DNA from: Amphiscolops sp. MND2022
Lineage: Eukaryota
DNA: 64,000 bases
Assembly (NCBI GenBank): GCA_964187785.1
Contig: OZ076409.1
Location: forward strand, 60,762,001 to 60,826,000
Direction of reading: 5' to 3'
Part shown: positions 22,163-60,541 of the stretch, one piece after another
Numbering within the stretch: the stretch's first letter is position 1
Layout of the letters: the number at the start of each line of letters is the position of its first letter
Notes under the pieces: generated by a model
Told to the model about the DNA's origin: nothing
Database searches by the model: none
What the model saw: the letters and a program-made list of their open reading frames with translations, nothing else
Made by a program: the position numbers and the translations under genes

Positions 22163-23139
22163 CTAGCAAATCGTAGTAAAATTCTGGATATTTCAAAAAA
22201 TTTCCGGACACCTGATAGCGTGGAGGAAGTTTCCAAAACTTTTTGTATGGGAGCGAGATTATTTTTAAGATGAGAAATTTCATCTGATAAAACGGCAAAG
22301 TAGTTGCTGCAGAGGGAGCTTCTTATTTTTGTCGACCTGCGACAGTGTTATGACGCCGCTAAATAGACATCGATGATATTAGCGAATTGATTTAACCATA
22401 AAAATTTTATTAGCTATTTTTCAAGAGTGCACAGAACAATCGTTTGGTACAAATTGTTTCGAGAAAACTGAAGACTACACGGGGAACGTGGAAAGTCTAC
22501 CCAATGCCATCGAATTTTGGCATGAAATCCCAGAAGCCGTTGAAATATCCGTTGAAGCAAAAAATCTACTTTATTAGCGATTGCGAATAGCTGTTAAAAC
22601 CAGTGATGTCAAAACCCCCAACCTGGAGCCATGCGACGATTGATGGATCTCAGGGGTTGTTTTAAAATATATTGATTGGAGTATTTTGAGAGCATTCGTT
22701 TGTCGTCTGATTTTTAGATTAATATTGAACAAAAATTTTCGGAAAAAATATTCGTTCGATCAAAGGATACCCACCCCTTAACTTCTTTGATGTTTTTGGT
22801 TTGGAAAAACCGTTCCGCGAGCTTAAAGGATCTCTTTTTGAGATTATAAAGACTTTTTGTGCGCGGGTTTTTTGGTGTTTCCAGTTAAGGAAAAAGCAGT
22901 TTTCAAAGTGTTCGCCTTTGTTGGGTATTCTTCGGCACTGTATGATAAATAAAAAGTTTCACAACAGTTGTCTCTTTGTGTATTTAAAACAGTTTGCTCT
23001 TTTTGAACTTTGCGCAGGGCGCCGACTTCTGCCGTTCCCGGCTGTTATTTATAATTATTCATCTCTACATATAGCGTACAAGAATAATGAAAGGTTTTCG
23101 CATTTGTTGGTCATGGTTTCTTGGAAAGAATTGAATATA

Positions 23140-23782
23140 CAGTACTGTGATTAAGAAATCGTCCCCCTATGCGCTGAGCGTCGTTATCAACCAATTAAAA
23201 TTGCCTATTTGCTCTAACTTTCAAGTGAAATCTCATGTACAGAAAGAACGCTTTTGTTATTTTCCTAGTTTCGGGCGGGTTTTTGAAAAAAAATTAAATT
23301 CAACGGATTCTGCAGGGTGTCTAGAATTTAATGGTATATTTTTTGGTTCAAAAACATTCTAAATGGAAAAACAATCGCACCTTTTCTCCGTGAAACATTA
23401 TTTTCCTATCTTAATACATGTTAATCGACGGAATTTTACCTTTCCAGTATGATATTTTGAAAACTGTTGATAATTTTGAAATCAAAATACATCTATAGAT
23501 TCAGTAGATTTGTGCGAGCTGATTGATCATAAAACATGCCAAAAAAACTGGTGCAAAACCGTTCAAAAATTGGAAAAACGGCAAAAAACCCAATTTTGCA
23601 CAAAATTAGCTGTTTGTAACTTTCAATTTTTGTCTCAGAATTTAAAAAAAATACTACTAGTAATATAAACTAGATGAAATTCTAAGAAACTTTTATCGCA
23701 GACGTTTTTCGAAACTTTCAATCGATGTCGAGAACATTGAGCCTAAAATCAAACGGGGGACGTTTTCTCAATCACAGTACTG
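23140..23782. mobile_element. Tc1/mariner-type MITE, 643 bp
   Basis: 27 bp TIR CAGTACTGTGATT(A/G)AGAAA(T/A)CGTCCCC with TA on both sides. Confidence 0.85.
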
Positions 23783-25722
23783 TACATCATGAAGCTTGTT
23801 TGGATCTTCATTTCTGCAAAATATACTAATAGAAACCCATTTAAAATGTATCAAAACTTTTTATGTTCTCAAAAAACAACGGTTTCGGAAAAAAACTGTT
23901 TCAGAACAACGTTTGAATTATATTGGATTATACTTTTTCTACCCTTTGCCATATGGAAAAAGAAAATTAATCTCTCCCTAATTTTGTCATGTCTCAATTT
24001 CATACTCAAAAAATAAAGTTTCTTCCACAGAATTTGATGACGAAAAAGAAATTAGGTTCGTAGCATAAGCATTTTTGGAAATTTTTGAAACAAGTACCGC
24101 AGAAAATGCTGAAAATGTGTGCAATTTTTCAACGTTGCCAGTTGTATATAATTTTTGAACGTTATTGTGAGTTTGAATAGCCACAGAGCTCGACTACAAA
24201 ATTTTCAGCTCCTCAGTATACCATTTTCATGAAGAAATGTTTTCGAAAGTTTTTTGAAGTGTGGCTCAAATGAACTTTAAAAAGTGTCACAAATTTCAAT
24301 CTTTTCGTGTAATTTTTGAACGTTTTTGTTCTTCGTGGGCAATCCACCTTCAAGAAAATGCTGTTGCTTAATTAATCCAGGACAGAAAATATCCCGTTGC
24401 TCAGCGGGCGTTTTACGAAGGTAAGCTCTTCATGATATGTTACTGAATATGTTATTGCTTTGTCTTCATCAATATTGGTTAGGTTTTTTATACTGTTTGT
24501 TTGCTCATGCTGTATGTTGTATGAGGATAGAGCTGGTTGAAGCATATTGATGGATGGGTCTTTGCCTCGACGTTTTCCCTGTGACGTGTTTTATACGTTT
24601 ATCTTGCTTTGTTTTTTTTCTTTTCCAGATAGATGATTATGATCAGGTGTGAATTGTTATCAATCTGCTTCTACAACCTCATCGAGCGATTATTGGTTAA
24701 GTTTATTAGCGGTAGTGTTGGAAAAATATTGTAGATAAAAATTCTAATTAACACCGGCTTCACTTTAATCCCTACTTGCACTCAATGATAAGTGTGCTAT
24801 AACTCGCTCCAACTTGTCTGCTCCTACTTTCACTCTTCAACCCGTCACGTCTCGCAATCATCCCCTTTATCTCTCCCTCTGTCCTCTTATAACTCTCCGC
24901 TTATTCTTTTTCTGCTCTGCTGGGTCTTCTTTACCACTTGTTGAAACACCAGCAACTCGCGCTGATACAACCACTAATCTTCCCAGCCTGTCAAATCGCG
25001 ACAGTTTACTACACTCTCAGTGAGAGCTTAAGAAGAGAAAAAAACAATAGTTTGTACAAGTTTAATCATGATGATGATGAACACGATGGTTAGATCACAG
25101 TAGACCTGAAATGGAGAAAATTTTTGTCTCCAGCAATTTCCCTTTGCTTGTAGAACGATTAACGCATTTCGTTCTTAGAAATAGCTGGATTCCTTTTTGT
25201 GATGGCTAGGTTTTTTGGATCTTATTGAACAACACAGTCCAATTTTCGAGTAGTAGTTTTTGTTTGACTAGTACATTATTCAACTTGTGTGCGTTGGAGG
25301 GATTGTTTTTCATAAGATTTCCATTGTTGGGATGTTTTGTCGCATGTAGCGTTTTTCTGGCCTAGTGGAATTTTGTTCGCAACTACACTTGACAACGTCT
25401 TTCACAAGCTGATCAACAACTCAGTTTTTTCCGAAGTCAGTATTTTTATGTGAGTAGTTTGAATTTCGAGAATTTAATTTGGCATCAATTCTAAATTGAG
25501 TGGTGCTTTCGATGATCATATATTTAGTTTGAGAAGCAACATTTCATGAAAAACATTGTCGATCACCTTATTTGCTCAAGTAATTCACTTTTTTAAACAA
25601 AAACTGACATTTTGGAAACGAGGAATAGAAGGTCGGTGTCTCTGCTGAATTGCTGACCAACCTTGAATAATGAAAGGTTTTCGCATTTGTTGGTCATGGT
25701 TTCTTGGAAAGAATTGAATATA

Positions 25723-26366
25723 CAGTACTGTGATTAAGAAATCGTCCCCCTATGCGCTGAGCGTCGTTATCAACCAATTAAAATTGCCTATTTGCTCTAA
25801 CTTTCAAGTGAAATCTCATGTACAGAAAGAACGCTTTTGTTATTTTCCTAGTTTCGGGCGGGTTTTTGAAAAAAAAATTAAATTCAACGGATTCTGCAGG
25901 GTGTCTAGAATTTAATGGTATATTTTTTGTTTCAAAAACATTCTAAATGGAAAAACAATCGCACCTTTTCTCCGTGAAACATTATTTTCCTATCTTAATA
26001 CATGTTAATCGACGAAATTTTACCTTTCGAGTATGATATTTTGAAAACTGTTGATAATTTTGAAATCAAAATACATCTATAGATTCAGTAGATTTGTGCG
26101 AGCTGATTGATCATAAAACATGCCAAAAAAACTGGTGCAAAACCGTTCAAAAATTGGAAAAACGGCAAAAAACCCAATTTTGCACAAAATTAGCTGTTTG
26201 TAACTTTCTCAATTTTTGTCTCAGAATTTAAAAAATACTACTAGTAATATAAACTAGATGAAATTCTAAGAAACTTTTATCGCAGACGTTTTTCAAAACT
26301 TTCAATCGATGTCGAGAACATTGAGCCTAAAATCAGACGGGGGACGTTTTCTCAATCACAGTACTG
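25723..26366. mobile_element. Tc1/mariner-type MITE (copy created by the tandem duplication)
   Basis: Same TIRs, TA flanks and flanking DNA as 23140-23782. Confidence 0.85.
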
Positions 26367-27624
26367 TACATCATGAAGCTTGTTTGGATCTTCATTTCTG
26401 CAAAATATACTAATAGAAACCCATTTAAAATGTATCAAAACTTTTTATGTTCTCAAAAAACAACGGTTTCGGAAAAAAACTGTTTCAGAACAACGTTTGA
26501 ATTATATTGGATTATACTTTTTCTACCCTTTGCCATATGGAAAAAGAAAATTAATCTCTCCCTAATTTTGTCATGTCTCAATTTCATACTCAAAAAATAA
26601 AGTTTCTTCCACAGAATTTGATGACGAAAAAGAAATTAGGTTCGTAGCATAAGCATTTTTGGAAATTTTTGAAACAAGTACCGCAGAAAATGCTGAAAAT
26701 GTGTGCAATTTTTCAACGTTGCCAGTTGTATATAATTTTTGAACGTTATTGTGAGTTTGAATAGCCACAGAGCTCGACTACAAAATTTTCAGCTCCTCAG
26801 TATACCATTTTCATGAAGAAATGTTTTCGAAAGTTTTTTGAAGTGTGGCTCAAATGAACTTTAAAAAGTGTCACAAATTTCAATCTTTTCGTGTAATTTT
26901 TGAACGTTTTTGTTCTTCGTGGGCAATCCACCTTCAAGAAAATGCTGTTGCTTAATTAATCCAGGACAGAAAATATCCCGTTGCTCAGCGGGCGTTTTAC
27001 GAAGGTAAGCTCTTCATGATATGTTACTGAATATGTTATTGCTTTGTCTTCATCAATATTGGTTAGGTTTTTTATACTGTTTGTTTGCTCATGCTGTATG
27101 TTGTATGAGGATAGAGCTGGTTGAAGCATATTGATGGATGGGTCTTTGCCTCGACATTTTCCCTGTGACGTGTTTTATACGTTTATCTTGCTTTGTTTTT
27201 TCTCTTTTCCAGATAGATGATATTGATCAGGTGTGAATTGTTATCAATCTGCTTCTACAACCTCATCGAGCGATTTTTGGTTAAGTTTATTAGCGGTAGT
27301 GTTGGAAAAATATTGTAGATAAAAATTCTAATTAACACCGGCTTCACTTTAATCCCTACTTGCACTCAATGATAAGTGTGCTATAACTCGCTCCAACTTG
27401 TCTGCTCCTACTTTCACTCTTCAACCCGTCACGTCTCGCAATCATCCCCTTTATCTCTCCCTCTGTCCTCTTATAACTCTCCGCTTATTCTTTTTCTGCT
27501 CTGCTGGGTCTTCTTTACCACTTGTTGAAACACCAGCAACTCGCGCTTATACAACCACTAATCTTCCCAGCCTGTCAAATCGCGACAGTTTACTACACTC
27601 TCAGTGAGAGCTTAAGAAGAGAAA

Positions 27625-28149
27625 AACAAGACGGGAACGTCCCAAGTCGGCGCCATATCTTAGGCTCAAAAATATTCAAGGAACAACTATTGTAAAAATT
27701 TGGAAAAAAATTTTTCAAAAAAATTATTTTTGAAATTTTTTTTCGAAAAAAAGTATTTTTTAAGTCGCAAAATGCCGAAAAACTCAAAAAAGGCCATTCA
27801 GGCTCATTAAACGTTTTCTACAAACCGAAAATTTCAAAAAAAATGCAAGGGGGTACCCTTTGATAAATTTCAAAAATTTTCGAAAAAAGTCGCATAGTGC
27901 CGAAAAAAAACCCAAAGGGGGGGCCCTTTGGTCTCACCTGTACTTTTGGAAGCATTAAAAAATTTATGGTTTAGTGCGAGAATCGAACCCACGCACTCCG
28001 GCTGGGTCGAAGATGGAAGATGAACAAATATGAAAGATGAACAAATTGTAAGAAAAGTGGACCACTCAGAGTGAGATTGTCAACTGAAAAAAAAACTACT
28101 CACTGTAAGAGTCGGGCTTTTTTCCTTAAGGGAAAAGGCGCCGACTAAA
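27625..28149 (-). mobile_element. HINE family 1, recent insertion into the second duplication unit
   Basis: Absent at the homologous site 25038-25044; ends AACAAGACGGGAACGTCCCAAGTCGGCGCC and GGCGCCGACTAAA; exact ends ambiguous within A-runs. Confidence 0.85.
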
Positions 28150-30163
28150 AACAATAGTTTGTACAAGTTTAATCATGATGATGATGACCACGATGGTTAG
28201 ATCACAGTAGACCTGAAATGGAGAAAATTTTTCATTTGCTTGTAGAACGATTAACGCATTTCGTTCTTAGAAATAGCTGGATTCCTTTTTGTGATGGCTA
28301 GGTTTTTTGGATCTTATTGAACAACACAGTCCAATTTTCGAGTAGTAGTTTTTGTTTGACTAGTACATTATTCAACTTGTGTGCGTTGGAGGAATTGTTT
28401 TTCATAAGATTTCCATTGTTGGGATGTTTTGTCGCATGTAGCGTTTTTCTGGCCTAGTGGAATTTTGTTCGCAACTACACTTGACAACGTCTTTCACAAG
28501 CTGATCAACAACTCAGTTTTTTCCGAAGTCAGTATTTTTATGTGAGTAGTTTAAATTTCGAGAATTTAATTTGGCATCAATTCTAAATTGAGTGGTGCTT
28601 TCGATGATCATATATTTAGTTTGAGAAGCAACATTTCATGAAAAACATTGTCGATCACCTTATTTGCTCAAGTAATTCACTTTTTTAAACAAAAACTGAC
28701 ATTTTGGAAACGAGGAATAGAAGGTCGGTGTCTCTGCTGAATTGCTGACCAACCTTGACCTGCCAAAAGGAGGTAACCTGAACAATAGCAATTAAGAAAG
28801 CTGGATTTAAAAAATATTGTAAAGATACAACTCAGAAGTACTATGCAATCTTCAGCTCAAACTTGTCCTGGGAACCATTTTCTGAAAGTACTGACAACTT
28901 GTGAGGTTATAAAATCGCTGAATGTTCTCATGGAATTTTGAGAAGATCTGTCTACTTTTCAAACAGACTTCTAACGAAGTTTTTCCTTGAAAATTTTATT
29001 GCTTGAATAGTGTTCAAAATTATGAAATTAGTTTTGAAAACTTCCTTTTTGAATCACATGCCACCCCTAGCTGGTTTTAAATACATGCTAAATATGTTAA
29101 AGGCCATTTTAAAATCATTCAAAAATATACCAAAGAAAATTTGAATTTTCTGAGTTGTTATTTTGGGTAAAAAATTAGCTAATAAACATAAACGGCCCAT
29201 TTTTGTTCCCGCTGTTGTATGTTTTCTAAGACACATACTACAAATATTTCGTAAGGATTCTTTTGCCTATCACGTCTCTTCTTACTAAACAGCCCTTTTC
29301 CCTGTCCGGAGCCTAATCCCGCTTAAATTATTATCACTATCCCGCAATCAGTTTAAGTGAACACTTTACCTCTTGTCTTAATCCCTTCTAATTTGTTAAT
29401 GTGTAGCACGACTAACATCTCCTAATGTCTTCTTCCCTTTGTGTTGAGAAGATTCCATTTTCTTTTTCGAGAAGTCCTCTGCGAACGAATTTAAAATGGC
29501 GCTTTTATCCAAATTAAAAGCGCTAATTGCTCACCGTTTTTTCTGGGAGAAACATGAAACAATTGATCAAATTTGCGATCGTTCGAGAAATAGCAGATTT
29601 GAGATTTCGGCAGGATTACTAGCAGCGTTAAATATTTAGTCATATTAGCTAGATTTGAGGTTCTCGGGTATCGCTTGTGTTTTTAGTCTTACCCGAATCT
29701 TATTGTGACAAGTTCTTTTGTAAGATGACAGAGCTTACACTGATTAGTTCACTTTTTCAGCATTCTTAACCTCAAGATTTAGAGAGACCAAACGGCCCCC
29801 TTTGAACAATTTTACATCAACATCAAAACTACGTAAGACCAAGCGGTCCCTATTTTGGGTTTTTGGGCCCTATGCGACTTGGTGTTTTGCAGACGCAATT
29901 TTGTGGTCTAAACTTATCTTTCAACACATATTTTTGCACATATTTCGAAGATTTTCAGCAAATATTTAATAAAATATTTCAGCAATGTTTAGCAAATATA
30001 GTTTCTGTCCCTTCATGACCTATTAAGATATATCCAATATGATCTTTTTCCTCGCATTTGCAAAGGTTTTAAACCAAGATACACAATACTCAAAAGTAAG
30101 CCATGGAGAACGCTTGTTTGGGATGAACTGTTTTTGCAAGCTGTTTATTTTACTGCGTTTCAG

Positions 30164-30313
30164 GGCAGACGAGGTTTAGGAAGCATCTATGTGTGGGCCT
30201 CTGGCAACGGGGGTGCGGCCGGCGACTGCTGCAGTGCCGATAGTCTGGTATCCTCTCCCTACTCAATAGCCATCGCGGCCCTCACCCACGAGAGCAAACC
30301 CGCATACTTCCAG
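30164..30313 (+). CDS. Kexin/furin-family proprotein convertase, catalytic-domain exon (oxyanion Asn)
   Basis: cag|GGC...CAG|gt; GRRGLGSIYVWASGNGGAAGDCCSADSLVSSPYSIAIAALTHESKPAYFQ resembles furin GRGGLGSIFVWASGNGG; phase 0-0; GC-rich. Confidence 0.95.
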
Positions 30314-30735: not shown

Positions 30736-30840
30736 GAGACATGCCCTAGCATCCTGACGTCTGTGTATACGGGGGGTGTGAGCAAGGTGCAGATGACCAG
30801 TCTCAAGCAGGGAGGCAAAATGGAGAAAACACACCCTATG
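30736..30840 (+). CDS. Proprotein convertase exon (not in ORF track)
   Basis: tag|GAG...ATG|gtaag; ETCPSILTSVYTGGVSKVQMTSLKQGGKMEKTHPM aligns to furin EACSSTLATTYSSG; phase 0-0. Confidence 0.9.
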
Positions 30841-36096: not shown

Positions 36097-36224
36097 GTAA
36101 CTACCAACATCATGTTCAACAAGGCGAACCCAACCTCTCTCGAGAACTGTGACGAGTACTTCAGTGGCACATCGGCCGCGGGACCTCTGGGCGCAGGCAT
36201 GATTGCATTGATGTTGCAGGCAAA
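36097..36224 (+). CDS. Proprotein convertase exon with catalytic Ser (not in ORF track)
   Basis: ttag|GTA...AA|gtaagt; VTTNIMFNKANPTSLENCDEYFSGTSAAGPLGAGMIALMLQA(N) contains the subtilase GTSA motif; phase 0-2. Confidence 0.95.
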
Positions 36225-41006: not shown

Positions 41007-41246
41007 CCCATTTCTCAACTGGCGAGACGTGCAACACATCATCGTGGAGACGAGTGACCAGCCGAACCCCAAGGGCATCTCCTCCTCTGACGACGGAAAG
41101 TGGGCGCTGAACGGGGACGGCAGAACTGTGAGTCATGACCTGGGCTTCGGGGTCATGAATGCTGCCAAGATGGTCATGACCGCCCAGAATTGGACTCAAG
41201 TGCCCCCACGCAAACAGTGTGTTGTCGACACTGTACAAGAGACAAG
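41007..41246 (+). CDS. Proprotein convertase exon (end of catalytic domain)
   Basis: ccag|C...AG|gt; (N)PFLNWRDVQHIIVETS...WALNGDGRTVSHDLGFGVMNAAKMVMTAQNW aligns to furin LTWRDMQHLVV...WATNGVGRKVSHSYGYGLLDA; phase 2-2. Confidence 0.95.
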
Positions 41247-45835: not shown

Positions 45836-47742
45836 CCCTAAATGAACCATTGGGACGTATTCGTCCCAGTTAGTTTCCGCAAACGAACCAGCTGACTGTA
45901 TGGTAAAAAACTCTTGAACATCTTTTTAGAACATTTCAAGAAGCTTAACAGTGTCTCGACCCCCAGTCATAATGATTGTAACATATCGTATGAAGTTATT
46001 GATAACTCCAATTTGAATAAAACGATTTCGCTCGATGAAGTGAAGTGTAGTTTGAAGAAAATTCGTAATCGTGAATCAGCTGGTCATGATGATGTTTTCC
46101 CGGAATTCCTTAAATATGCCAACGACGCTATCGTGAATCTTCCAACATTTTTCTTCAATAAGGTTCTAGTAAGTGGCGTTGTCCCTGATGACTGGGGCCT
46201 TTCCATCTACCGTCCTCTCCATAAAAAAGGGGATAGGTGAAATCCAAATATCTAGAGGTATCCCTCACCAGTTGTCTTTGTAAGATATTTACGCCTCTCA
46301 TTGTCGACCGAATTCAACGCGACCTGGAAAATGAGCAGCTCCTTGGTCGGGAGCAAGCAGGATTTAGGTAACATGTATGGTGTTTTGATCACGCTTTTGT
46401 CCTACACGCCATAATATCGACCTACCTAATGAATAAAGAGACTATTTGTAACATTTGTTGATTATGAGAAATCCTTCAATCGTGTTGAACACTCTTTGAA
46501 AAACTTGGACAACATGATATTAATGGTAAAGTTTTGTCGGTGATAAGAAATCTATATCAAAAGACTAAAGCCTGCGTGGATGTTAACGGATCGCCTACAG
46601 ACGTTTTCGATTTTCGGGTAGGAGTGATGCAGGGCGACAACCTCTCACCCTTCTCTTTATCATTTTTTAATTACTTCGAAAACTACGTCAGCTCTAAAAT
46701 GCAAGGTATTACCCTAGAGGATTCCAACTTGCAGACGTTTTTGAAGCGTTATGTACTGTTGAATGCTGATGATACTCTACTTTTCAATCATGGTAAGTGA
46801 TGCTTCAAGTGAACCCAGTATGTGAAAATTACCGCCTATATAAGCATCGACTAGAACTCCAACGATATTTGAAAATATATAGAGGTCCTGAAAGAGTGAA
46901 ATTAACCAATTTTAGGTGTTCGTCTGCTGCTTTACCAACTGTTAAAATAGTGTTACGCAACTCCTTGATAGAAACTTGTCCCTATGTGGGTCGTATCGTG
47001 TTCCGGGCGAATACCATCTGTTATTGAACTGTAGGTTTGTTAGCGCTAAACGTCAAGAGCTTTTGCCAATTTATTACTTGACTCACCTTAATTTAATAAA
47101 GTATGACCAGCTGATGAATACGTCTAATGGAACTCTTCTGATGAATATCCCAAATCTTGTCCAATACATTATAATTTGTTGCACCAGTTCTGATGAATAT
47201 TTGTAAGCTGTTATTTGTACGCCTTCGGGCAACAAAATTAATTAACTCTCTCTCACGATTTTCAGAGGATATAACATAACATTGCATGCCCTTTCACGGA
47301 ATATTGATATGGTGTTTCCAAAATCAAGGAAACGAAACCTAAAAATCAAAAAAAATCAGCGCCTATTATCCGTTTTTTTTTCAGTTTTCGTTTATGGCCA
47401 TTTTATCCCACTGGTATTAAGATTAGGTTAAAGTGGCCTTAGCATGTTTTGAAAGATGTTTTGCAGTCGGAAACACGAGGCGTGCAAAGTTTCGGCGCAA
47501 AATCCGGAGCCAGTGCGGCGAAGCTGCACGCCAGCGAAGGACTTCCCGCAGAAAACGCTGCACGCAAGTGGTCCGCTAGCGGGCCCCCAGCCCAAGTAGT
47601 TCAAAAATCAAATTAATAGCCCTGATTGTCTTCTTGCGAACGCGCTGTAAATCGTTTGTCGGACTTGAATATTTTAGGAGATATTACGGTTAAAAGTTTA
47701 AGCACCAGATTTTTGGATGAATATTTCCTGGCCCATTTAGGG
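45836..47742. mobile_element. piggyBac-type MITE interrupted by a LINE
   Basis: TCAA|CCCTAAATGAACCA ... TGGCCCATTTAGGG|TTAA; the halves 45836-45914 and about 47250-47742 are colinear with the intact copy at 48041-48629. Confidence 0.75.
45915..47245 (+). pseudogene. 5'-truncated, internally deleted non-LTR retrotransposon reverse transcriptase (RTE-X/CR1-like LINE)
   Basis: Frameshifted RT motifs SAGHDDVFPEFLK, VPDDW...PLHKKGD, EQAGFR, FVDYEKSF, GVMQGDNLSP, NADD (YADD-like) and C-terminal LTNFRCSS...C..C...EYHLLLNC; stops and frameshifts throughout. Confidence 0.9.
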
Positions 47743-51156: not shown

Positions 51157-51354
51157 GTGAAGAATCGAAAGGAGAGTGGGTAGTGAATGTGTCCTATGAC
51201 CCTAATGTGATCCCGCAAAGTGGGAACAATAGCGATGACTTCAAGTGTGAGATCTCGTATGTGCAGTTAGTGCTCTACGGAACTAAAGAAAGACACGTCA
51301 ACCCCTCGAAGAGCAATCCCAAACTCGCTTCTGTTGGACGCGAAACATCTCTCG
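51157..51354 (+). CDS. Proprotein convertase exon completing the P domain
   Basis: ttcag|GT GAA; (G)EESKGEWVVNV...QLVLYGT matches furin WDEDPSGEWVLEI...LVLYGT. The 3' end at G|gtcagc is inferred; the frame stays open to a stop at 51530. Confidence 0.85.
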
Positions 51355-51579
51355 GTCAGCCATGTTCACATATTTTGACCCCAAGCACTGCTCACAGGGT
51401 TACTGTAGAAGTGAAAGAAAATTCCATCCACATGATAGTTTTTCCACAGAATTCAACTACCATAGAAGTATTTGGAGTATGTTCGAACTACTACAGAAAG
51501 AAATGTTTGTCGACCTTTTTTGAAAATTAGCCAAAAATTCCGAAAATGTTTTGGTGGTTAACTACGAAACAATTAGCTA

Positions 51580-51698
51580 CCCAGCCCAGCATGCTTTTTA
51601 AAGTTCAATGAAAAGTTTTCGGAAAACGCACCAGAAACCCCCCTTCCCCAAAAAACGTGTTCTCAATTTTCATTCAACTTTTTGAATGTTTAGTTGGG
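51580..51698. mobile_element. Short degenerate MITE
   Basis: CCCAGCCCAGCAT...AAAGTTCAATGAAAA versus reverse-complement end CCCAACTAAACAT...AAAGTTGAATGAAAA. Confidence 0.5.
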
Positions 51699-52529
51699 GA
51701 CTACTTAGCATACTTTCAAACATAGAAATCTGAAATGTTATTTATTTGAAAATGCCCCAAAACTCCAAAAAAGCTAAAGCAAATTTTTCAGTTTTTGACA
51801 ATTGTTGATGTTTTGTGGGTGTGAACATCCACAGAGTTTAACAGTACATTTGGCTACTTAACATACTTTTGTATGGAGAAATACTGAGTTTCATTTTAAA
51901 TAAAGCCTAAAATTCTGTGGTGTATCAAATCCAGAAAGTTGAAAACAGAATTAGTTACGTAGATGTTTTAAAATGAGAAATGATTCTTTTCAAAAAATTA
52001 TTGTGAACTGAAAATTACCCGTTTTCAATTTCCTACTGTTTAATGCAGTTTTTGTACCAATTTTGGTTGTTTTGGTAATACGGTTTCCTCAGAGTTGAAC
52101 AACACAAAATAGTTACGTAAGTATATTACAAAGGAGCCTGGAACGAAATGTGCCAAATAAGCCAAGAGGTTTTGAATTTTTGTGCGAGTTTCAAACGTTT
52201 TAAATGGCGTTTGGCATTTTGACCCTTCAATAATGGAATGAATCGATATCAGAAAAGTATCGTTTTTTTTGGAAAACATCCAGTGAAAAGACTGGCCTCA
52301 ATATTTTGATATTAGAACTTTAGGTTTTTAATGTGACATTTTGTTTTTGCCATATTCTGATAATATACAACATTCTGTTTAGAGGCTTAAATACTCAAAA
52401 GTACAAGTTATATTCGATGAAGGCCTTCTAACTTAACATGACTTTTACATGGTTGGAAACTGAATTTTTTGGAGAAAAATATTGAATTGTTGAAAGTACT
52501 GAAAAGACATTGACAATGTCTTGTTTTAG

Positions 52530-52598
52530 AAAACACAGCTATCAAAGAACAATTCAAGCACGACTCAAAAAACAATGAACTAATTGGAGAAATTGTCG
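52530..52598 (+). CDS. Candidate convertase C-terminal exon
   Basis: Strong acceptor ttgttttag and donor gtaagt; 69 nt open in phase 1-1: (E)NTAIKEQFKHDSKNNELIGEIV. Confidence 0.5.
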
Positions 52599-53487
52599 GT
52601 AAGTGAAACTATCATGACTCATTACCACACGATTTCCACTCTTGTTGCTAATGTGACTTTTTTAAAATTCAAATAAGAAGTCAAACATTGATTCCTCGCT
52701 TTTCAGTATATTTTTCAATTTTCACGAAGTACTGCTTGTTCGTTCTATTTTGAAATAGAATACTGTGCAGCCAAAAATTTCTGAGACCTTTGAAGTTTCT
52801 ATTAGAAGAATATTAATGTGCAGTGTTATGCGTTGTGAGCATACGGTTTTTTCTGCAGTTATGCAAATTTGACACTTATGCTCGAGACTAAACATAAAAT
52901 AGTTTTGAAAAATGTATATCACCTGGTTTGGAGATCATTATTCTTTGTTTGATGAAATTTGACTTCTTGTGTTGATTAATGTCAATTCGATGTTTAAACG
53001 TCTTTCATATTAAATTTCATTGGAGTTTTTTTATCGTATAGTAATTTTGATTATCTACAATGTCGCAGACTTTATTTCCATTTCGAAATTGCTGTGAGAA
53101 ATCTTATCATTTGAGATATTTGCCAACTCTGAGAACAAATTTTTCTTAGACTGTGAACTGGAAAAGTTCATTCCTAATCTTTTGATACGACTGACACTAC
53201 TGTATGAGTATTCAATTTCGCATTACAGTTTATCTATTTAATGGTTCATTTTTGTTTTGATATTTACAACAGGTAAAGTCTATTTTTTTCGCAAAAAATA
53301 TCTTTTCGTGTTATGGAACCCAACTCAGGAAAATGAATGAAAAGTGAAAATTTGGAAACATTTTCGTTTGTGTAATGAAACATTCAGTTCTTTTCCATTT
53401 TTCAGTGAAACATGTTTTAAGTGGCAATTATTGTTTGTAGTATTTATCAGTTATCTCAATTGATTTGATCTGGCCTTTGACTAAAAG

Positions 53488-53550
53488 TAGTCACCGCGTT
53501 GTTTCTATTACTCTTCCTTGTTCTCATTACCTCCTCGGCCGCTGTTTCCC
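53488..53550 (+). CDS. Candidate hydrophobic (transmembrane or signal-like) exon
   Basis: Phase 1-1: (V)VTALFLLLFLVLITSSAAVS; both splice sites (aaag or tag acceptor, gtaatg donor) are weak. Confidence 0.3.
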
Positions 53551-53869
53551 GTAATGACCATTTTTCATTGACAATATTTAAAAACCTGGCTAATCATACC
53601 GTACTGGTTGGAATTGAAGCCTCATCAATAGTGCTTTTAAAAAATTTAGTAACCGCACTCAAATCGAGTATACGGCATTCAGGCACAAACCTCAAACTTT
53701 CAAAATGACACAATTGTTTGCATGTGACAGATTCCAGCGACGATGGTATTTTTGAAAAGTGCTATATCTTCAAGAATTTTTGTATCTTCAACTAAACACA
53801 GTTTAAAAAGTTACATTGGAAGAATCACTTGGAAAAAAGCTGTAAAGAACCTTTTTGCCAAACACGACA

Positions 53870-54178
53870 CATTGAGATTTTTCGTCCATTCTGTCGCAAA
53901 TCATCAAAAAAATTGAAGGGGGACCCATTTGTCAAAAAAATTGGCAAGTCTCACAATGCCGAAAAAAACAAAGGGGGACCCTTTAGTCTCGTCCAGTTTT
54001 GTATGATACGCGGAAAAAAGGAAAAACCTTTTTGGTTCAGTTCGCTGGGCCAACAGGTACAATTTAAAAATTTTGTAGAATTTTTGGTAGAACTATTTTG
54101 GACATTTCAGGTGTATCGAAAAAAAACTGACGAAAAGCCATGACTATAGTCGACTCTTAAAAAAAGCACCGACTAAAA
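53870..54178 (-). mobile_element. HINE family 1, partial copy
   Basis: Closely resembles 34710-35036; ends AGTCGACTCTTAAAAAAAGCACCGACTAAAA. Confidence 0.65.
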
Positions 54179-54187
54179 GTTAATGAC

Positions 54188-54870
54188 AACAAGCCGGGAC
54201 CGGCCCAAGTCGGCGCCATATCCAAGGCTCAAAAATAGCAAAACGACTTCCAAGTGTCAAGTACTCTTTTACAGTACTCGAAAATCGAAATTTTTTGAAA
54301 AAAAATTTTTCGAAAAAATTACATACTCAAAAAAAATGGACCGAGTGGCGCGCCGGGGCTCGCTAGCGCGAGCCCCTGGCGCGCTAAAGTCTCACAATGC
54401 CGAAAAACTGAAAGGGAGGACCCTTTGAGGTTTTTCAACATCCATTCTGTCGCAAAACATGAAAAAATTGAAGAAAACAAAAATTTTCATTTTCGGGAAA
54501 AAATCTCACAATGCCGAAAAAAAACTGAAAGGGGGGACCCTTTGGGATTTTTCAACATCCATTCTGTCGCAAAACATCAAAAAAATGCAGGGGGACCCTT
54601 TGGGGAAAAAATTTTTTTTCGGAAAAAAAGTCTCGCAGTGCCGAAAAAAATGAAGGGGGGGAGTCTTTGGTCTCGCCCGGTATGGTTTGTTACGCGGAAA
54701 AACAGGAAAAACCTTTTTGGTTCAGTTCGCTAGACCAAATAGTGCATTTTGGACCAATAATATTTTGTAGAACTTTTAAGAACTATTTTGGTCAGTTCGT
54801 GTGGATTGAAAAAAAAAAAGAAAAGTCACTATAATAGTCGCGTTTCACTTCATGAAGCGCCGACTAAAAA
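54188..54870 (-). mobile_element. HINE family 1, full copy with GC-rich internal hairpin
   Basis: AACAAGCCGGGACCGGCCCAAGTCGGCGCC ... CTTCATGAAGCGCCGACTAAAAA. Confidence 0.8.
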
Positions 54871-55000
54871 TTATGGTAAAATTAGCAAATCATCTCGCAT
54901 TTTTCGGATAGAATACAATTTTAAAGGAATAGACCTAAGGTTTTCAAAGGAATATTTGTTTCTGTGTATGGAAATGAAAAAAAGTGGTCATGTGTTGAAG

Positions 55001-55153
55001 ACAAGCAGATGGGCAAGCGAGAGGAGGCGGCCGAAGGCATGAGTGAGAAGAACATGGGGGGATACAGTGAGTTCAGAGACCCCTACGAGGGAAAGATCTC
55101 CGCCAGTGGACACAGCCCCAGGGTCCACACCAAGAAGTCAAACACCGCCAGGG
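55001..55153 (+). CDS. Exon encoding KR-preceded peptide repeat 1 (probable convertase C-terminal tail)
   Basis: GC-rich island with gaag| acceptor and G|gtgagt donor, phase 1-1: (D)KQMGKREEAAEGMSEKNMGGYSEFRDPYEGKISASGHSPRVHTKKSNTAR. Confidence 0.75.
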
Positions 55154-57041
55154 GTGAGTTGCAACTCGTAGAATGATTTGCTTTGAACTAACAACGCTGT
55201 CTTTGTATTGGGTGGATAATCTGTTGATGGTTTTCGGATATCGGATCATGACTAAAACATGACTGATATGAGGAATTAGCTCGATATAACTTGTAAAGGT
55301 TGTAAAGAATGCGCACTCCAGCTTGTGCGTTGTTAAAAATCTGTCCTAAAATGTTAGTGGACATCCTTAACATGATCCGGAAACTGCGACGTAAGAAAAT
55401 GCCTAAAAGGGAATATCCTTCGAAAGGTTCTGTTTCAGTGTCTTGATTTTTGATTGTCAATCAGATTTGGTTGTAAAACTCTTGTTTCTGAAACAATTGA
55501 TGTTCCCTGCAGAAGGAGGCGACCTCGATGTTGTTAAGAAGGAGTTGTTTATAGTTTTAAGTGTTTGTTATAAATAATGCAAAAATTGTCTGTAATGTCA
55601 AGTTCAATTTTCATCTCAGAACATCGAAGAGAACGAACAAGATCGTGAGTTTTTGTTTTACTGAGTTTTCTATCACATCTGGTAATATCAAACTAATCGA
55701 ATGAATGACTGTTTATTATTAATTCAGGTATATTATTGAAACCTCAAGATGTCAACTTTTTTCAGTAAAATTCTCGTCGCGATACTGAAAAATTAGATAT
55801 TTTGTTGCAGTGACTATAAGCGTGAGAATTAAATTTCTCCAGCTGCCGACGACATTTCAATTCTCGTGCGATGGAACGAGCGAGTGGTAATTATGCATTC
55901 GTACGCTGACGTCATTGAGATGAAGCGAGTGAATGTTCGGAATTATGCTTTCGTGCGCCGAGTTATTGAGATGAAGCGAACGAGTGTTTATTATTCGTTC
56001 GCCGAGAGCTTTGCCTGCATTCAAATGAGAATGCGAAACTTCGTCTACGCTTAGTAGTTATATTTGCTTTAGTCCGGGATTTAAAGGCGGTATAAACTGG
56101 TACAGTGATTAATTGTGCGCTAAATAATGATTAAACAGGAGTGTATTGGTATTCCAGATATGATTAAATTATTAATGAAAGATTAAAACAGAAATAATAG
56201 TTTGACCCGGAGGGGCCTATTTTCGAAAATTTTGCACAGCTATTATGCACCTAAAGGTGCTCCTGCTCGCGCAATGACATCAGGCATTTTTCGATCTCTC
56301 AAAAACTGTCAATGCGACTGGAACGAAATTTTCTACAGTCATTCTGCACCATATTAGAGTCTTATATGTGCAATGGCATCAAAATCGTATCGCTGGGATC
56401 TAAGAAACAAAGCATAAAATAGTCCAAAAATGACCAAAAAACAGCCAATTTTGGACTTTCGATTTTCTCAAATACTCTTTACCGCTTGAAAGAACGTTTA
56501 TGGAGTCTTCCTTCACCATTATAAGTGCTTAATATGTACAATTTCATCAAATTTGTATGACTGGGACTTGAGCGAATCAGAAGGGCGGCTCTTGTTTGGT
56601 ACCCTCATGTATTTCGAGCCGCGATATTGTGATAGCTTTTAACGTGATTTTGTTTACTTTTAAAAACTCTAATTCATGCCAGCTGTTATTATTAGCTAAA
56701 TATCTTTTTTGTTTTACAATAATTACATTTTTCGACACCACAATGTTTTTATATGTTTAACACTGGTCTTGAGGTTGCTACTGTTCTGTTTTCACGATCT
56801 TCAACAATGTCTGTTGATTGACACTTAAAAGTATCTTCAAAGCTGTTTTCATGAAAATCTAACAGTGCGCTGTATTCCAACAAAGTAATTTCTTGATTGA
56901 CGCCCAGTAATACTAAAAATTATTGTTGCACCAGATTAACTGGGAAGTAACTTCTGCTTTCTCAAATGGTAAAAGGGGGGATTGAAAATGAAGTGCTGTG
57001 AAGCTTGTTTTTTTTCACTTGCATGTTTTTGTCTTTTTTAG

Positions 57042-57202
57042 ATTCCTGGGTCAAACGCGATTTTGATTGGCTGTCTTCTGAGCCAATGGGAGGACTGGAA
57101 GACTTCAAAGATCCCCGTGAAGGAAGACCTTATCTAAGTGGGTTTCAACCCCGACTATCCAAAACCCTCAGATCACTTACCAGAAAAAGCAATGAGCATT
57201 AA
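57042..57202 (+). CDS. Terminal exon encoding KR-preceded peptide repeat 2
   Basis: Polypyrimidine tract + tag, phase 1: SWVKRDFDWLSSEPMGGLEDFKDPREGRPYLSGFQPRLSKTLRSLTRKSNEH*; paralogous to 55001-55153. Confidence 0.75.
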
Positions 57203-58543: not shown

Positions 58544-60541
58544 ATGGTCATAACAGTGGCTTCACAGGAATCGCAAGACATCATAAACCAGTTAGGGCCA
58601 ACGGGACCTGGGGTTACAGCCTCCCAATGTTCCCCCTCTCAGTTTGTTCCATCAGCCGGCGGTGCTCCTGGAAACTGCAACAACGTGGCTACCGCGGCGG
58701 CTGTTGCTGCCAATGTCCTGTCGTCAAACTCTTACAACGAATCATCTGCTTCTGCCTTGTCATCTTATTGTACAACTTCTGCTGATTACCCTTCTGCCTA
58801 TCTTCACGCTCAATCGCAATCACCCCCTTCGGGCGTTGCCGCTCATTCCCAGATGCATTGCCCTATTCCACCTGGGGTTTCAGTCGCGGCGGCGGCGGCT
58901 AACCCCATACATGCAATCGGGTCTCCTGCTGTGATACCTTCCGCTAACTCCAACCCGTATCTATATGGTAAAGACGGAGGCATCGCTTTGTCCACATCTG
59001 CTTACCCCACTTGTGTGAGCCCGCCACCTCTGAGTGGTGGCACACCTTGGTTGTTGTCAGCTGAGAATGCGTGTTCTTGGGGAGCCGCTGCAAACGCCTT
59101 CTCACCCTACCAGAGCAGTCAGTGTTTAATGCAAAATGGGTGTTTCTTTCCCAATGTTGCAGGCGGTCCAAGCCTGTATGCCCAAAACGCAGCAGCTCTG
59201 AACCCGGCGGGGATAACCAGCCCAAACTCGTGGAGCCATATAGCGGCCGCAGGAACCAATGCCTTCAGTGGATACATGACACCCTCAAGATTAGACTCAC
59301 CTCCTCCGAACATAGCGCCCACTTACCCGTTAGCAGGTACCCCAACAATTCACAACTATTACGCAGCAGCTGCAGTTGCCCACGCAAACCCAATTCTTTA
59401 CGGGCGGGATCCCGATAGTCTTCTGGATTGTATGGAACGGGAATGCGAAGAAACTCCTTCAAATGATGATTTGGAACAGTTTGCAAAACAGTTCAAGCAG
59501 AGGCGTATAAAACTGGGCTTCACCCAAGCTGATGTTGGACTGGCTTTGGGCACCTTATATGGAAACGTGTTCAGCCAAACTACAATTTGTAGATTCGAGG
59601 CGTTGCAGTTGAGTTTCAAAAACATGTGCAAACTGAAGCCTCTGCTAACAAAGTGGCTGGAGGAGGCTGAGAATAACAATGGTTGTCCAAGTGCACTTGA
59701 TAAAATCGCAGCACAGGGTCGAAAGAGAAAAAAACGAACTTCGATTGAGGTTTCAATCAAAAACGCTTTAGAACACAACTTTCAGATTCAACCCAAACCC
59801 TCAGCCCATGAAATATCAACCTTGGCTAATAACTTGCAGCTTGAAAAAGAAGTGGTGAGAGTTTGGTTCTGTAACAGACGACAAAAGGAAAAACGAATGA
59901 CTGGAAATTACCTGGAAGATGGAACCCAAAAACATGGAGAAATGGAATCTAATGATACCGAAGATTGTGGCAGTAGCAGTAGCGGCGAGGAGGACGAAAA
60001 CCATAATGATGACTGCAGTGACATGGAAAGCAAAAGGTATTCATCCTGTCATCCTCTAAAACAGCAGCCGGACATTGGCAAAATTTACCCAGACGATGAC
60101 TTACCCTGTCGATTCTCGAAACACAGTTTGGAACTCGCTGATTCCTCTAATGATATCAATGACGGCGCAGGAAACGGTGGCAGTAAATGTGAGATCCCTT
60201 TGGGTAGTTATTGCAACCCTCAATCAGTAGAGGCCTCGCAAAACCCCCCACCCGGATCTCGCCAGATGAAATCACCTGGACCTCTCACCCCCAATACCCC
60301 AGTAGGGGGTCTTTCTATTCCCCCTGGAAGCGTTGCCCAACCTCATAACAGTCAACTCAGTCTGTTTTGCCCCTCTCTGGGTTACAGGAAAGAGCAACCG
60401 CCTCTAAACCACGCGTCTTTCTCGATTGCAGACTTTCACGCAGAAAAGGAACGCCTCATGCTGCAGCATTTGCACACAGAGTCAAGAAACTCGCTCGGAT
60501 GTAATTCTATTAACTATAGCTTCACTCCTAATTGCAGTTAA
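58544..60541 (+). CDS. POU3: Class III POU-domain homeobox transcription factor (Brn1/2/4, Oct6, vvl family), single coding exon, 665 aa
   Basis: POU-specific domain [60 protein letters not shown], class III linker [17 protein letters not shown] and homeodomain [17 protein letters not shown]; Ala/Pro/Ser-rich N-terminus. Confidence 0.98.

What the first reader, a model, noticed from the sequence alone, without database searches (positions are those of the whole stretch)
51157..57202. Convertase tail (or adjacent gene) that looks like its own substrate: two paralogous KR-preceded peptide repeats on phase-1 exons
Seen: exons 55001-55153 and 57042-57202 encode KR-EEAAEGMSEKN-MGGYSEFRDPYEGK-ISASGHSPR and KR-DFDWLSSEP-MGGLEDFKDPREGR-PYLSGFQPR, consensus KR-x9-11-MGGxxxF[RK]DPxEG[KR]xxxSGxxPR. 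They are phase-compatible with the last P-domain exon, directly or through candidate phase-1 exons 52530-52598, 53488-53550 (hydrophobic) and 53731-53745 (SSDD); acidic micro-exon candidates also lie at 55513 and 55620-55644. Known: KR sites, G-K/R amidation signals and acidic spacers typify neuropeptide precursors, while YxxF and acidic clusters typify furin cytosolic tails. Inference, three models: (a) an enzyme-prohormone fusion that releases peptides from itself; (b) a membrane convertase with a duplicated sorting tail, where skipping the symmetric hydrophobic exon moves the repeats into the lumen; (c) a separate peptide-precursor gene packed between the convertase and POU3. I do not recognise the repeat from any known family.
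Basis: partly seen in the sequence, partly recalled or inferred. Interest (0 to 1): 0.72.

Follow-up and report, generated by a model that had tools for sequence, protein, structure and literature searches.

The report
Acoel convertase with duplicated peptide-like tail
The two neuropeptide-looking exons are two old copies of the last exon of a hormone-processing enzyme in an acoel worm, so they are most likely its cleavable tail, although a nearby signal-peptide-like stretch leaves open that the tail is also made as a small secreted peptide precursor.

Summary
The two exons are real and translate as stated. They belong to the convertase. Two acoel orthologs (C. macropyga XP_075266131.1; JGI P0004) carry one copy of the same motif at the end of the enzyme's own ORF. 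In C. macropyga the last exon opens at the same phase-1 Asp junction that either window exon would use. So the ancestral last exon was duplicated here.

The enzyme has the oxyanion Asn (not PC2). It trees with invertebrate 'PC3-like' (PCSKX-like) convertases, not PC1/3 or furin. Ortholog tails have no membrane segment.

The proposed amidated peptides are unlikely: Gly-Lys/Arg is not conserved, and the Arg is followed by Pro in 3 of 4 copies. The dibasic sites are conserved, so the tail probably works like the PC1/3 C-terminal domain, which is clipped off.

Open and more novel: exon candidate 53488-53550 looks more like a signal peptide than a membrane anchor, and repeat 1 contains MGGYSEF, close to acoel MxGF neuropeptides (MGGYSAF/MGGYSNF). 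An internal transcript could therefore make a stand-alone precursor (about 20%). No RNA reads were examined; all splicing is inferred.

The parts
30164..30313 (+). Convertase catalytic-domain exon with the oxyanion Asn (WASGNGG)
   Evidence: tblastn 68% to P0001; boundaries and open splice
30736..30840 (+). Convertase catalytic-domain exon
36097..36224 (+). Convertase exon with the catalytic Ser (SGTSAA)
41007..41246 (+). Convertase exon, end of catalytic domain
   Evidence: 67% to P0001
45362..45597 (+). P-domain exon
   Evidence: Pfam PF01483 E 7.9e-11
51157..51354 (+). End of P domain and start of tail; donor at 51354, phase 1
   Evidence: homology ends at 51353; the junction codon gives the Glu found in both orthologs
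52530..52598 (+). Tail helix exon, phase 1 to phase 1
   Evidence: same donor position in read-through calls P0120 and P0122; confident helix in the ortholog model
53488..53550 (+). Candidate exon, hydrophobic and signal-peptide-like (VTALFLLLFLVLITSSAAVS); unproven; no in-frame Met (stop just upstream)
   Evidence: hydropathy and GC unusual, splice sites weak; absent from both orthologs
53731..53745 (+). Candidate acidic micro-exon (SSDD); unproven
   Evidence: in frame; not among the 14 best-scoring AG-GT pairs of its intron
53866..54876 (.). Dispersed repeat in the intron before repeat exon 1
55001..55153 (+). Repeat exon 1: copy of the ancestral last exon; strong donor, so probably internal; read-through stop at 55174-55176
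55513..55532 (+). Candidate acidic micro-exon (phase 1 to 0); unproven
   Evidence: keeps frame together with 55620-55644; weak sites
55620..55644 (+). Candidate acidic micro-exon (phase 0 to 1) with GTGAGT donor; unproven
57042..57202 (+). Repeat exon 2: last coding exon with stop; copy of the ancestral last exon
58544..60541 (+). Neighbouring intronless POU-homeodomain gene; not part of the convertase

Best explanation
An acoel soluble kexin-family convertase of the invertebrate 'PC3-like'/PCSKX-like group whose last exon has been duplicated. SHOWN by homology: after the P domain the ORF continues through 51354 and 52530-52598 into a tail. Each repeat exon matches the orthologs' single last exon and bears its motif [MW]G-x3-[DE]F-x-DP...PR[VL]. 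INFERRED: repeat 1 is spliced on to repeat 2, directly or through acidic micro-exons, or is skipped, giving tails with two motifs or one. INFERRED by analogy with PC1/3: the tail is lumenal and disordered, and is cut at its KR/RR sites in the secretory pathway by this or another convertase. Cutting would tune activity or routing and release non-amidated fragments of about 35-45 residues that carry the motif.
For: P0001 (756 aa) and P0004 (765 aa) hold the motif in the convertase ORF. P0004 is an unbroken ORF on a 3049-nt contig, so probably an mRNA (inference). An HMM built only from those two tails ranks the two exons 1st and 2nd of 2274 six-frame segments, though with modest E-values of 0.033 and 0.086. 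The pattern [MW]G...[DE]F.DP, drawn from these copies, occurs in 2 of 2274 segments and in 7 of 124 fetched proteins, all acoel convertase tails or repeat-1 read-throughs. Read-through calls P0119/P0123 place the C. macropyga last-exon start at the Asp before RGSIMKR, and P0120/P0122 leave homology at the window's 52598 donor. The ortholog tails hold 6 and 5 KR/RR sites. The motif region of the P0004 model has pLDDT under 50. Precedent: PC1/3 loses its C-terminal domain by in-trans cleavage, which changes activity and routing (PMC3557230 passages; PMC4182778 passages).
Against: No transcript of this species was seen. The repeat-1 acceptor is mediocre (18% of intronic AGs score as well). The tail role is borrowed from PC1/3, a clade the tree rejects for this enzyme (p-AU 0.011). 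PCSKX in leech is broadly expressed rather than neuron-specific (10.1101/802215 passages). Only two independent ortholog tails are known. This reading leaves the hydrophobic, GC-rich stretch 53488-53550 and the MGGYSxF likeness unexplained.
Confidence: 0.62

Rival explanations
1. Dual-output locus. Besides the full enzyme, an internal promoter in intron 52599-53487 gives a short mRNA: a small Met-bearing exon, the hydrophobic exon as signal peptide, an acidic spacer, then KR-repeat 1 and KR-repeat 2. This would be a stand-alone two-copy peptide precursor born from the enzyme's tail.
For: 53488-53550 has a short hydrophobic core followed by small residues and then acidic, not basic, residues. 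Its best 17-residue hydropathy of 2.61 is matched by 0 phase-1 symmetric pseudo-exons in 20,955 bp of this gene's introns, 0 on + 1-30100 and 1 on the 64-kb minus strand, the last two in all three phases. GC 0.49 is reached by 239 of 5701 unique non-coding windows, and the stretch is not in a repeat. Repeat 1 holds MGGYSEF, 6 of 7 like C. macropyga MxGF peptides.
Against: The threshold was set on the candidate itself; at hydropathy 2.0 the same three backgrounds give 5, 8 and 10 pseudo-exons. Its splice sites are weak. There is no in-frame Met on the exon, and 16 upstream ATG/phase-1-donor pairs fit, so none is singled out. No stand-alone precursor was among the 5 hits of the tail profile or for repeat 1 alone (none of 11 candidates); both are weak negatives. 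MGGYSEF follows EKN, not KR.
Confidence: 0.2
2. True enzyme-prohormone fusion: fragments released from the tail of the full-length enzyme are signalling peptides with a receptor, kept in all these acoels and doubled here. This is compatible with the best explanation but goes beyond it.
For: The motif is conserved as an island in a poorly conserved tail. A basic site lies 2-5 residues before it in P0001, P0002 and P0004, and KR 9-11 residues before it in the window. It resembles MxGF peptides. ProSAAS peptides are proposed to act as neuropeptides (PMC3229528, title and start of abstract only).
Against: Amidation signals are not conserved and Arg-Pro follows the motif in 3 of 4 copies (that Pro after Arg blocks cleavage is recalled, and one search found no paper for it). 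Ortholog motifs (WGSAEDF, MGNKTDF) do not resemble MxGF peptides. The motif strings are absent from the precursor list of PMC6188537, apart from one unrelated FEDP.
Confidence: 0.2
3. Membrane-anchored isoform: including 53488-53550 makes a type I membrane convertase with the repeats as a furin-like cytosolic sorting tail.
For: The exon is symmetric and in frame. Its 19-21-residue windows are hydrophobic enough to insert on a rough scale. YSEF and acidic runs follow it.
Against: Neither ortholog has such a segment, nor do the last 130 residues of 10 other relatives (best 0.54), so the motif evolved in the lumen. No basic residues follow the segment. Its splice sites are weak. The enzyme is outside the furin group.
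Confidence: 0.08
4. An unrelated peptide gene packed between the convertase and the POU gene.
For: Repeat 1 alone found no longer relative, and profile scores to the ortholog tails are modest.
Against: The orthologs carry the motif in the enzyme ORF at the matching junction. Without these exons the window's gene has no last exon after the 52598 donor.
Confidence: 0.03

Closest known systems
C. macropyga 'neuroendocrine convertase 2-like' XP_075266131.1 (P0001) and JGI protein P0004
   Same: Orthologs: 65% identity over 307 columns, 100% SH-aLRT clade; same tail helix, same last-exon junction, same motif, dibasic sites, no membrane segment.
   Different: They have one motif copy, with an extra SRR[EQ]FSxP stretch the window lacks; the window has two copies on two exons plus candidate extra exons.
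Invertebrate 'PC3-like'/PCSKX-like convertases (mollusc, annelid, priapulid, myriapod, hagfish proteins)
   Same: Share a 10-row clade with SH-aLRT 97 in a quick tree; long, mostly charged tails without a membrane segment in their last 130 residues.
   Different: None bears the motif. The name PCSKX comes from 10.1101/802215, whose reference sequences were not in my tree; that paper infers loss in ecdysozoans and vertebrates, yet my clade holds a priapulid, a myriapod and hagfish.
PC1/3 (PCSK1) C-terminal domain
   Same: Soluble convertase with a tail removed by proteolysis, affecting activity and granule routing; the working model for this tail.
   Different: Different clade (p-AU 0.011); no tail-profile match to the PC1-named proteins fetched.
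Acoel MxGFG/MxGF neuropeptides (PMC6188537)
   Same: MGGYSEF in repeat 1 versus MGGYSAF and MGGYSNF in Cmac_607.1; the family has amidated and non-amidated members.
   Different: Those are short multi-copy peptides directly after KR on a precursor with its own signal peptide; here the motif is not directly after KR, continues into DP...PR[VL], and repeat 2 and the orthologs do not fit.

Membership tests
Kexin-like proprotein convertases | Peptidase S8 domain followed by P domain | tested here: met
   Pfam hits on window exons (S8 pieces weak, P domain E 7.9e-11) and on orthologs
Kexin-like proprotein convertases | Catalytic Asp, His, Ser and oxyanion residue | tested here: inconclusive
   Ser and oxyanion Asn are in the window; exons for Asp and His were not found in it; the orthologs have the matching motifs
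PC2 (PCSK2) | Asp at the oxyanion position | tested here: not met
   Window and both orthologs read WASGNGG; PC2 has Asp (PMC4182778 passage). No PC2 sequence was in my trees.
PC1/3 (PCSK1) | Groups with PC1/3 orthologs | tested here: not met
   AU test p 0.011 against 7 PC1-named rows; quick tree, long acoel stem, group chosen
PC1/3 (PCSK1) | Tail removed by cleavage at basic sites | not testable with these tools
   Sites are present and conserved; cleavage needs protein data
Furin-type membrane convertases | Transmembrane segment before a cytosolic tail | tested here: not met
   Absent in both orthologs; in the window only through an unproven exon
PCSKX orthologous group | Phylogenetic grouping with the PCSKX reference sequences | tested here: inconclusive
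   Groups with invertebrate 'PC3-like' proteins apart from PC1 and furin (SH-aLRT 93 and 97), but the paper's own reference sequences were not included
Amidated neuropeptide precursor | Conserved Gly followed by a cleavable basic site | tested here: not met
   G-K-Ile and G-R-Pro in the window; no Gly-basic pair there in the orthologs
Neuropeptide precursor (stand-alone) | Own N-terminal signal peptide | tested here: inconclusive
   Signal-like candidate 53488-53550 without a proven start; no signal-peptide predictor was available
MxGFG peptides | M-x-G-[FY]-[GS] directly after a dibasic site, in several copies | tested here: not met
   Motif fits in repeat 1 only and follows EKN

The most novel reading that the evidence does not exclude
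A neuropeptide gene being born inside its own processing enzyme. The convertase's last exon was duplicated, an intronic stretch became a signal-peptide exon under an internal promoter, and the locus now yields both the enzyme and a two-copy secreted precursor. One of its peptides resembles the acoel-only MxGFG family, hinting that such families can start from a convertase tail.
Probability: 0.17. Interest if true: 0.82.

Novelty: new variant of a known kind. Interest (0 to 1): 0.45.

Why it matters
At the least, it corrects the gene model and points to a conserved motif in the tail of a little-studied convertase group, kept in two diverged copies. If the internal signal-peptide transcript or bioactive tail peptides exist, the locus gives a concrete, testable route for the origin of the lineage-specific neuropeptides that acoels are reported to have gained (PMC6188537, abstract and section 9).

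Tried and rejected
No genome is held for this window and no RNA reads were examined, so the link between exons rests on homology. Repeat 1 as a query found no longer relative. Pfam had no family for either repeat. The ESM Atlas gave only a 0.79 P-domain lead for the P0004 tail. The AlphaFold model of P0004 gave no confident structure for the motif; few alignment rows cover the tail, so this says little. The careful tree did not finish; quick trees were used, on 46 and 25 of the fetched proteins, chosen by hand, plus the window model. Termination at the 51530 read-through stop was rejected because homology continues at 52530. Micro-exon candidates did not rank among the top 14 AG-GT pairs of their introns. 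Literature: six motif strings gave 0 papers; topic searches listed no paper whose title or abstract start describes acoel convertase tails or a convertase-derived peptide gene; subscription papers are mostly outside the library. The mass-spectrometry data files of PMC6188537 are not among the five files held, and its colour marks for detected peptides are lost in the text; they could bear on whether C. macropyga tail peptides were seen. Earlier scan findings: nothing relevant.
Full report
Observation. They are paralogs: 17 of 43 residues identical, E 1e-9 for the pair. Repeat 2 scores 76 against repeat 1, where the best unrelated one of 2274 six-frame segments scores 35. In the 24-codon ungapped core 12 residues are identical, 5 through synonymous changes, and the DNA alignment is barely above shuffles (5 of 500). 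I infer an old duplication with both copies kept at the protein level.

The gene. A search with exon 41011-41244 gave 3 hits among 66 candidates: C. macropyga XP_075266131.1 (P0001, 67%), a JGI protein (P0002) and a genomic fragment. The P0002 cluster holds a full-length member, P0004, 765 aa on a 3049-nt contig. The window is therefore most likely from an acoel (inference). Seven exons from 30164 to 52598 splice into one open frame matching P0001 from about residue 289 on. The 5' half of the enzyme was not found in the window.

The tail. Both orthologs continue past the P domain into a tail of about 135 residues without a hydrophobic segment. The start of the tail matches the end of exon 51157-51354 and exon 52530-52598, with the junction codon giving the orthologs' Glu. 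The end holds one copy of [MW]G-x3-[DE]F-x-DP...PR[VL]. An HMM from the two ortholog tails alone ranks the repeat-2 and repeat-1 frames first and second of 2274 segments, with E 0.033 and 0.086; the next is 1.2. The motif as a pattern, which I drew from these four copies, is found in 2 of 2274 segments and 7 of 124 fetched proteins, all acoel tails or repeat-1 read-throughs.

Exon structure. A profile of the four tails against 1.84 billion representatives gave 5 hits. Four look like gene calls that run through intron DNA, which marks exon edges. P0119/P0123 match C. macropyga only from the Asp before RGSIMKR to the stop, so that is one last exon. P0120 and P0122 leave homology right after the residues matching the window's 52598 donor. 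Joining 52598 to either 55001 or 57042 yields an Asp followed within a few residues by KR. Each repeat exon is thus a copy of the ancestral last exon. Repeat 1 has a strong donor (0.6% of intronic GTs score as well) and a mediocre acceptor (18%); repeat 2 has a strong acceptor (1.6%) and the stop. The simplest models are repeat 1 then repeat 2, with or without two acidic micro-exons, or repeat 2 alone; all stay in frame. P0121 and P0124 are repeat-1 read-throughs from other contigs, identical across the exon; they are not transcripts.

Family. The oxyanion residue is Asn, and PC2 has Asp (PMC4182778, passages), so the ortholog's database name 'convertase 2-like' is not supported. In quick trees the three acoel sequences form a 100% clade inside a group of invertebrate 'PC3-like' and 'kpc-1-like' proteins, SH-aLRT 93 with 47 rows and 97 with 26 rows. 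A clade with the PC1-named rows is rejected, p-AU 0.011. That group is probably the PCSKX group of 10.1101/802215 (passages and first part of section 7). The match is inferred: no reference PCSKX or PC2 sequence was in my trees, and the acoel stem is long.

How it probably works. The ortholog tails have 6 and 5 KR/RR sites. The P0004 model shows a confident helix at about 641-679 and low confidence at 686-745, which includes the motif. PC1/3 loses its C-terminal domain by in-trans cleavage, giving a more active, less stable enzyme, and that domain helps routing to granules (PMC3557230 and PMC4182778, passages; PMC3634814, passages). By analogy I expect this tail to be cut at its dibasic sites. 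A convertase tail that looks like a substrate is therefore not new in itself. The orthologs read DPYDGQ and DPWSIR there. In repeat 2, P0001 and P0004 the following Arg precedes Pro, and in repeat 1 a single Lys precedes Ile. That such sites are poorly cut is recalled; a search for a source found none. The expected products are longer, non-amidated fragments.

What remains unexplained. First, 53488-53550. Its hydropathy (2.61 over 17 residues) is matched by 0 phase-1 pseudo-exons in 20,955 bp of introns and by 1 on the other backgrounds; at a looser 2.0 there are 5, 8 and 10. Its GC is in the top 4% of unique non-coding windows (239 of 5701) and it is not in a repeat. Its splice sites are weak, it has no in-frame Met, and 16 upstream starts fit equally. 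Its make-up, a short hydrophobic core followed by small and then acidic residues, suits a signal peptide better than a membrane anchor (inference; no predictor run). A signal peptide would also keep the motif in the lumen, as in the orthologs. Second, repeat 1 contains MGGYSEF, and the C. macropyga MxGF precursor carries MGGYSAF and MGGYSNF (PMC6188537 supplement). Given the M, G and F that the tail motif already supplies, the extra G-Y-S match has a chance of about 2e-4 per comparison, before allowing for the many peptides in the list. It is a lead only: it follows EKN rather than KR, and repeat 2 and the orthologs do not share it. No stand-alone precursor with the motif turned up in the protein searches or in that supplement (parts 1-4 of 11 read, whole text searched). 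These are weak negatives, since few acoel transcripts seem to be held.

Papers seen. PMC6188537: abstract, section 9, supplement as above. 10.1101/802215: passages and part 1 of section 7, no supplement. PMC3557230, PMC4182778, PMC3634814, PMC3867721: passages. PMC3229528: search listing only.

Verdict. Observation confirmed; interpretation partly supported. About 85% that both exons are duplicated last exons of the convertase; 62% for the full working model of a soluble enzyme with a clipped regulatory tail; about 20% each for an added stand-alone precursor and for bioactive tail peptides, which are not exclusive; 8% for a membrane isoform. New variant of a known kind; interest 0.45, or about 0.8 if the internal precursor transcript is real.

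Noticed in passing
window 1-30163: No exon for the signal peptide, prodomain or catalytic Asp/His of the convertase was found: either an intron over 30 kb or a 5'-incomplete copy.
   Followed up: partly
window 23082-28758: Near-identical tandem duplication: 23082-25042 recurs at 25665-27626 (99.2%) and 25040-25666 at 28147-28758 (97.1%), with about 520 bp inserted in the second copy. Recent duplication or assembly artefact.
   Followed up: partly
window 51355-52529: This intron has no counterpart in read-through calls P0120 and P0122, whose frames run across the position: intron gain or loss among acoels.
   Followed up: no
window 45890-47210: Broken frames that look to me like a decayed LINE reverse transcriptase inside the P-domain intron (likeness recalled); no Pfam hit.
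   Followed up: partly
window 58544-60541: Intronless POU-homeodomain gene, 665 codons, starting 1.3 kb after the convertase stop on the same strand.
   Followed up: partly
P0001 (XP_075266131.1): Named 'neuroendocrine convertase 2-like' but has the oxyanion Asn and trees with 'PC3-like' proteins; the name is probably misleading.
   Followed up: partly
P0011, P0032, P0040, P0090, P0099: Hagfish, myriapod, priapulid and spider proteins fall in the PCSKX-like clade, although 10.1101/802215 infers its loss in vertebrates and ecdysozoans.
   Followed up: no
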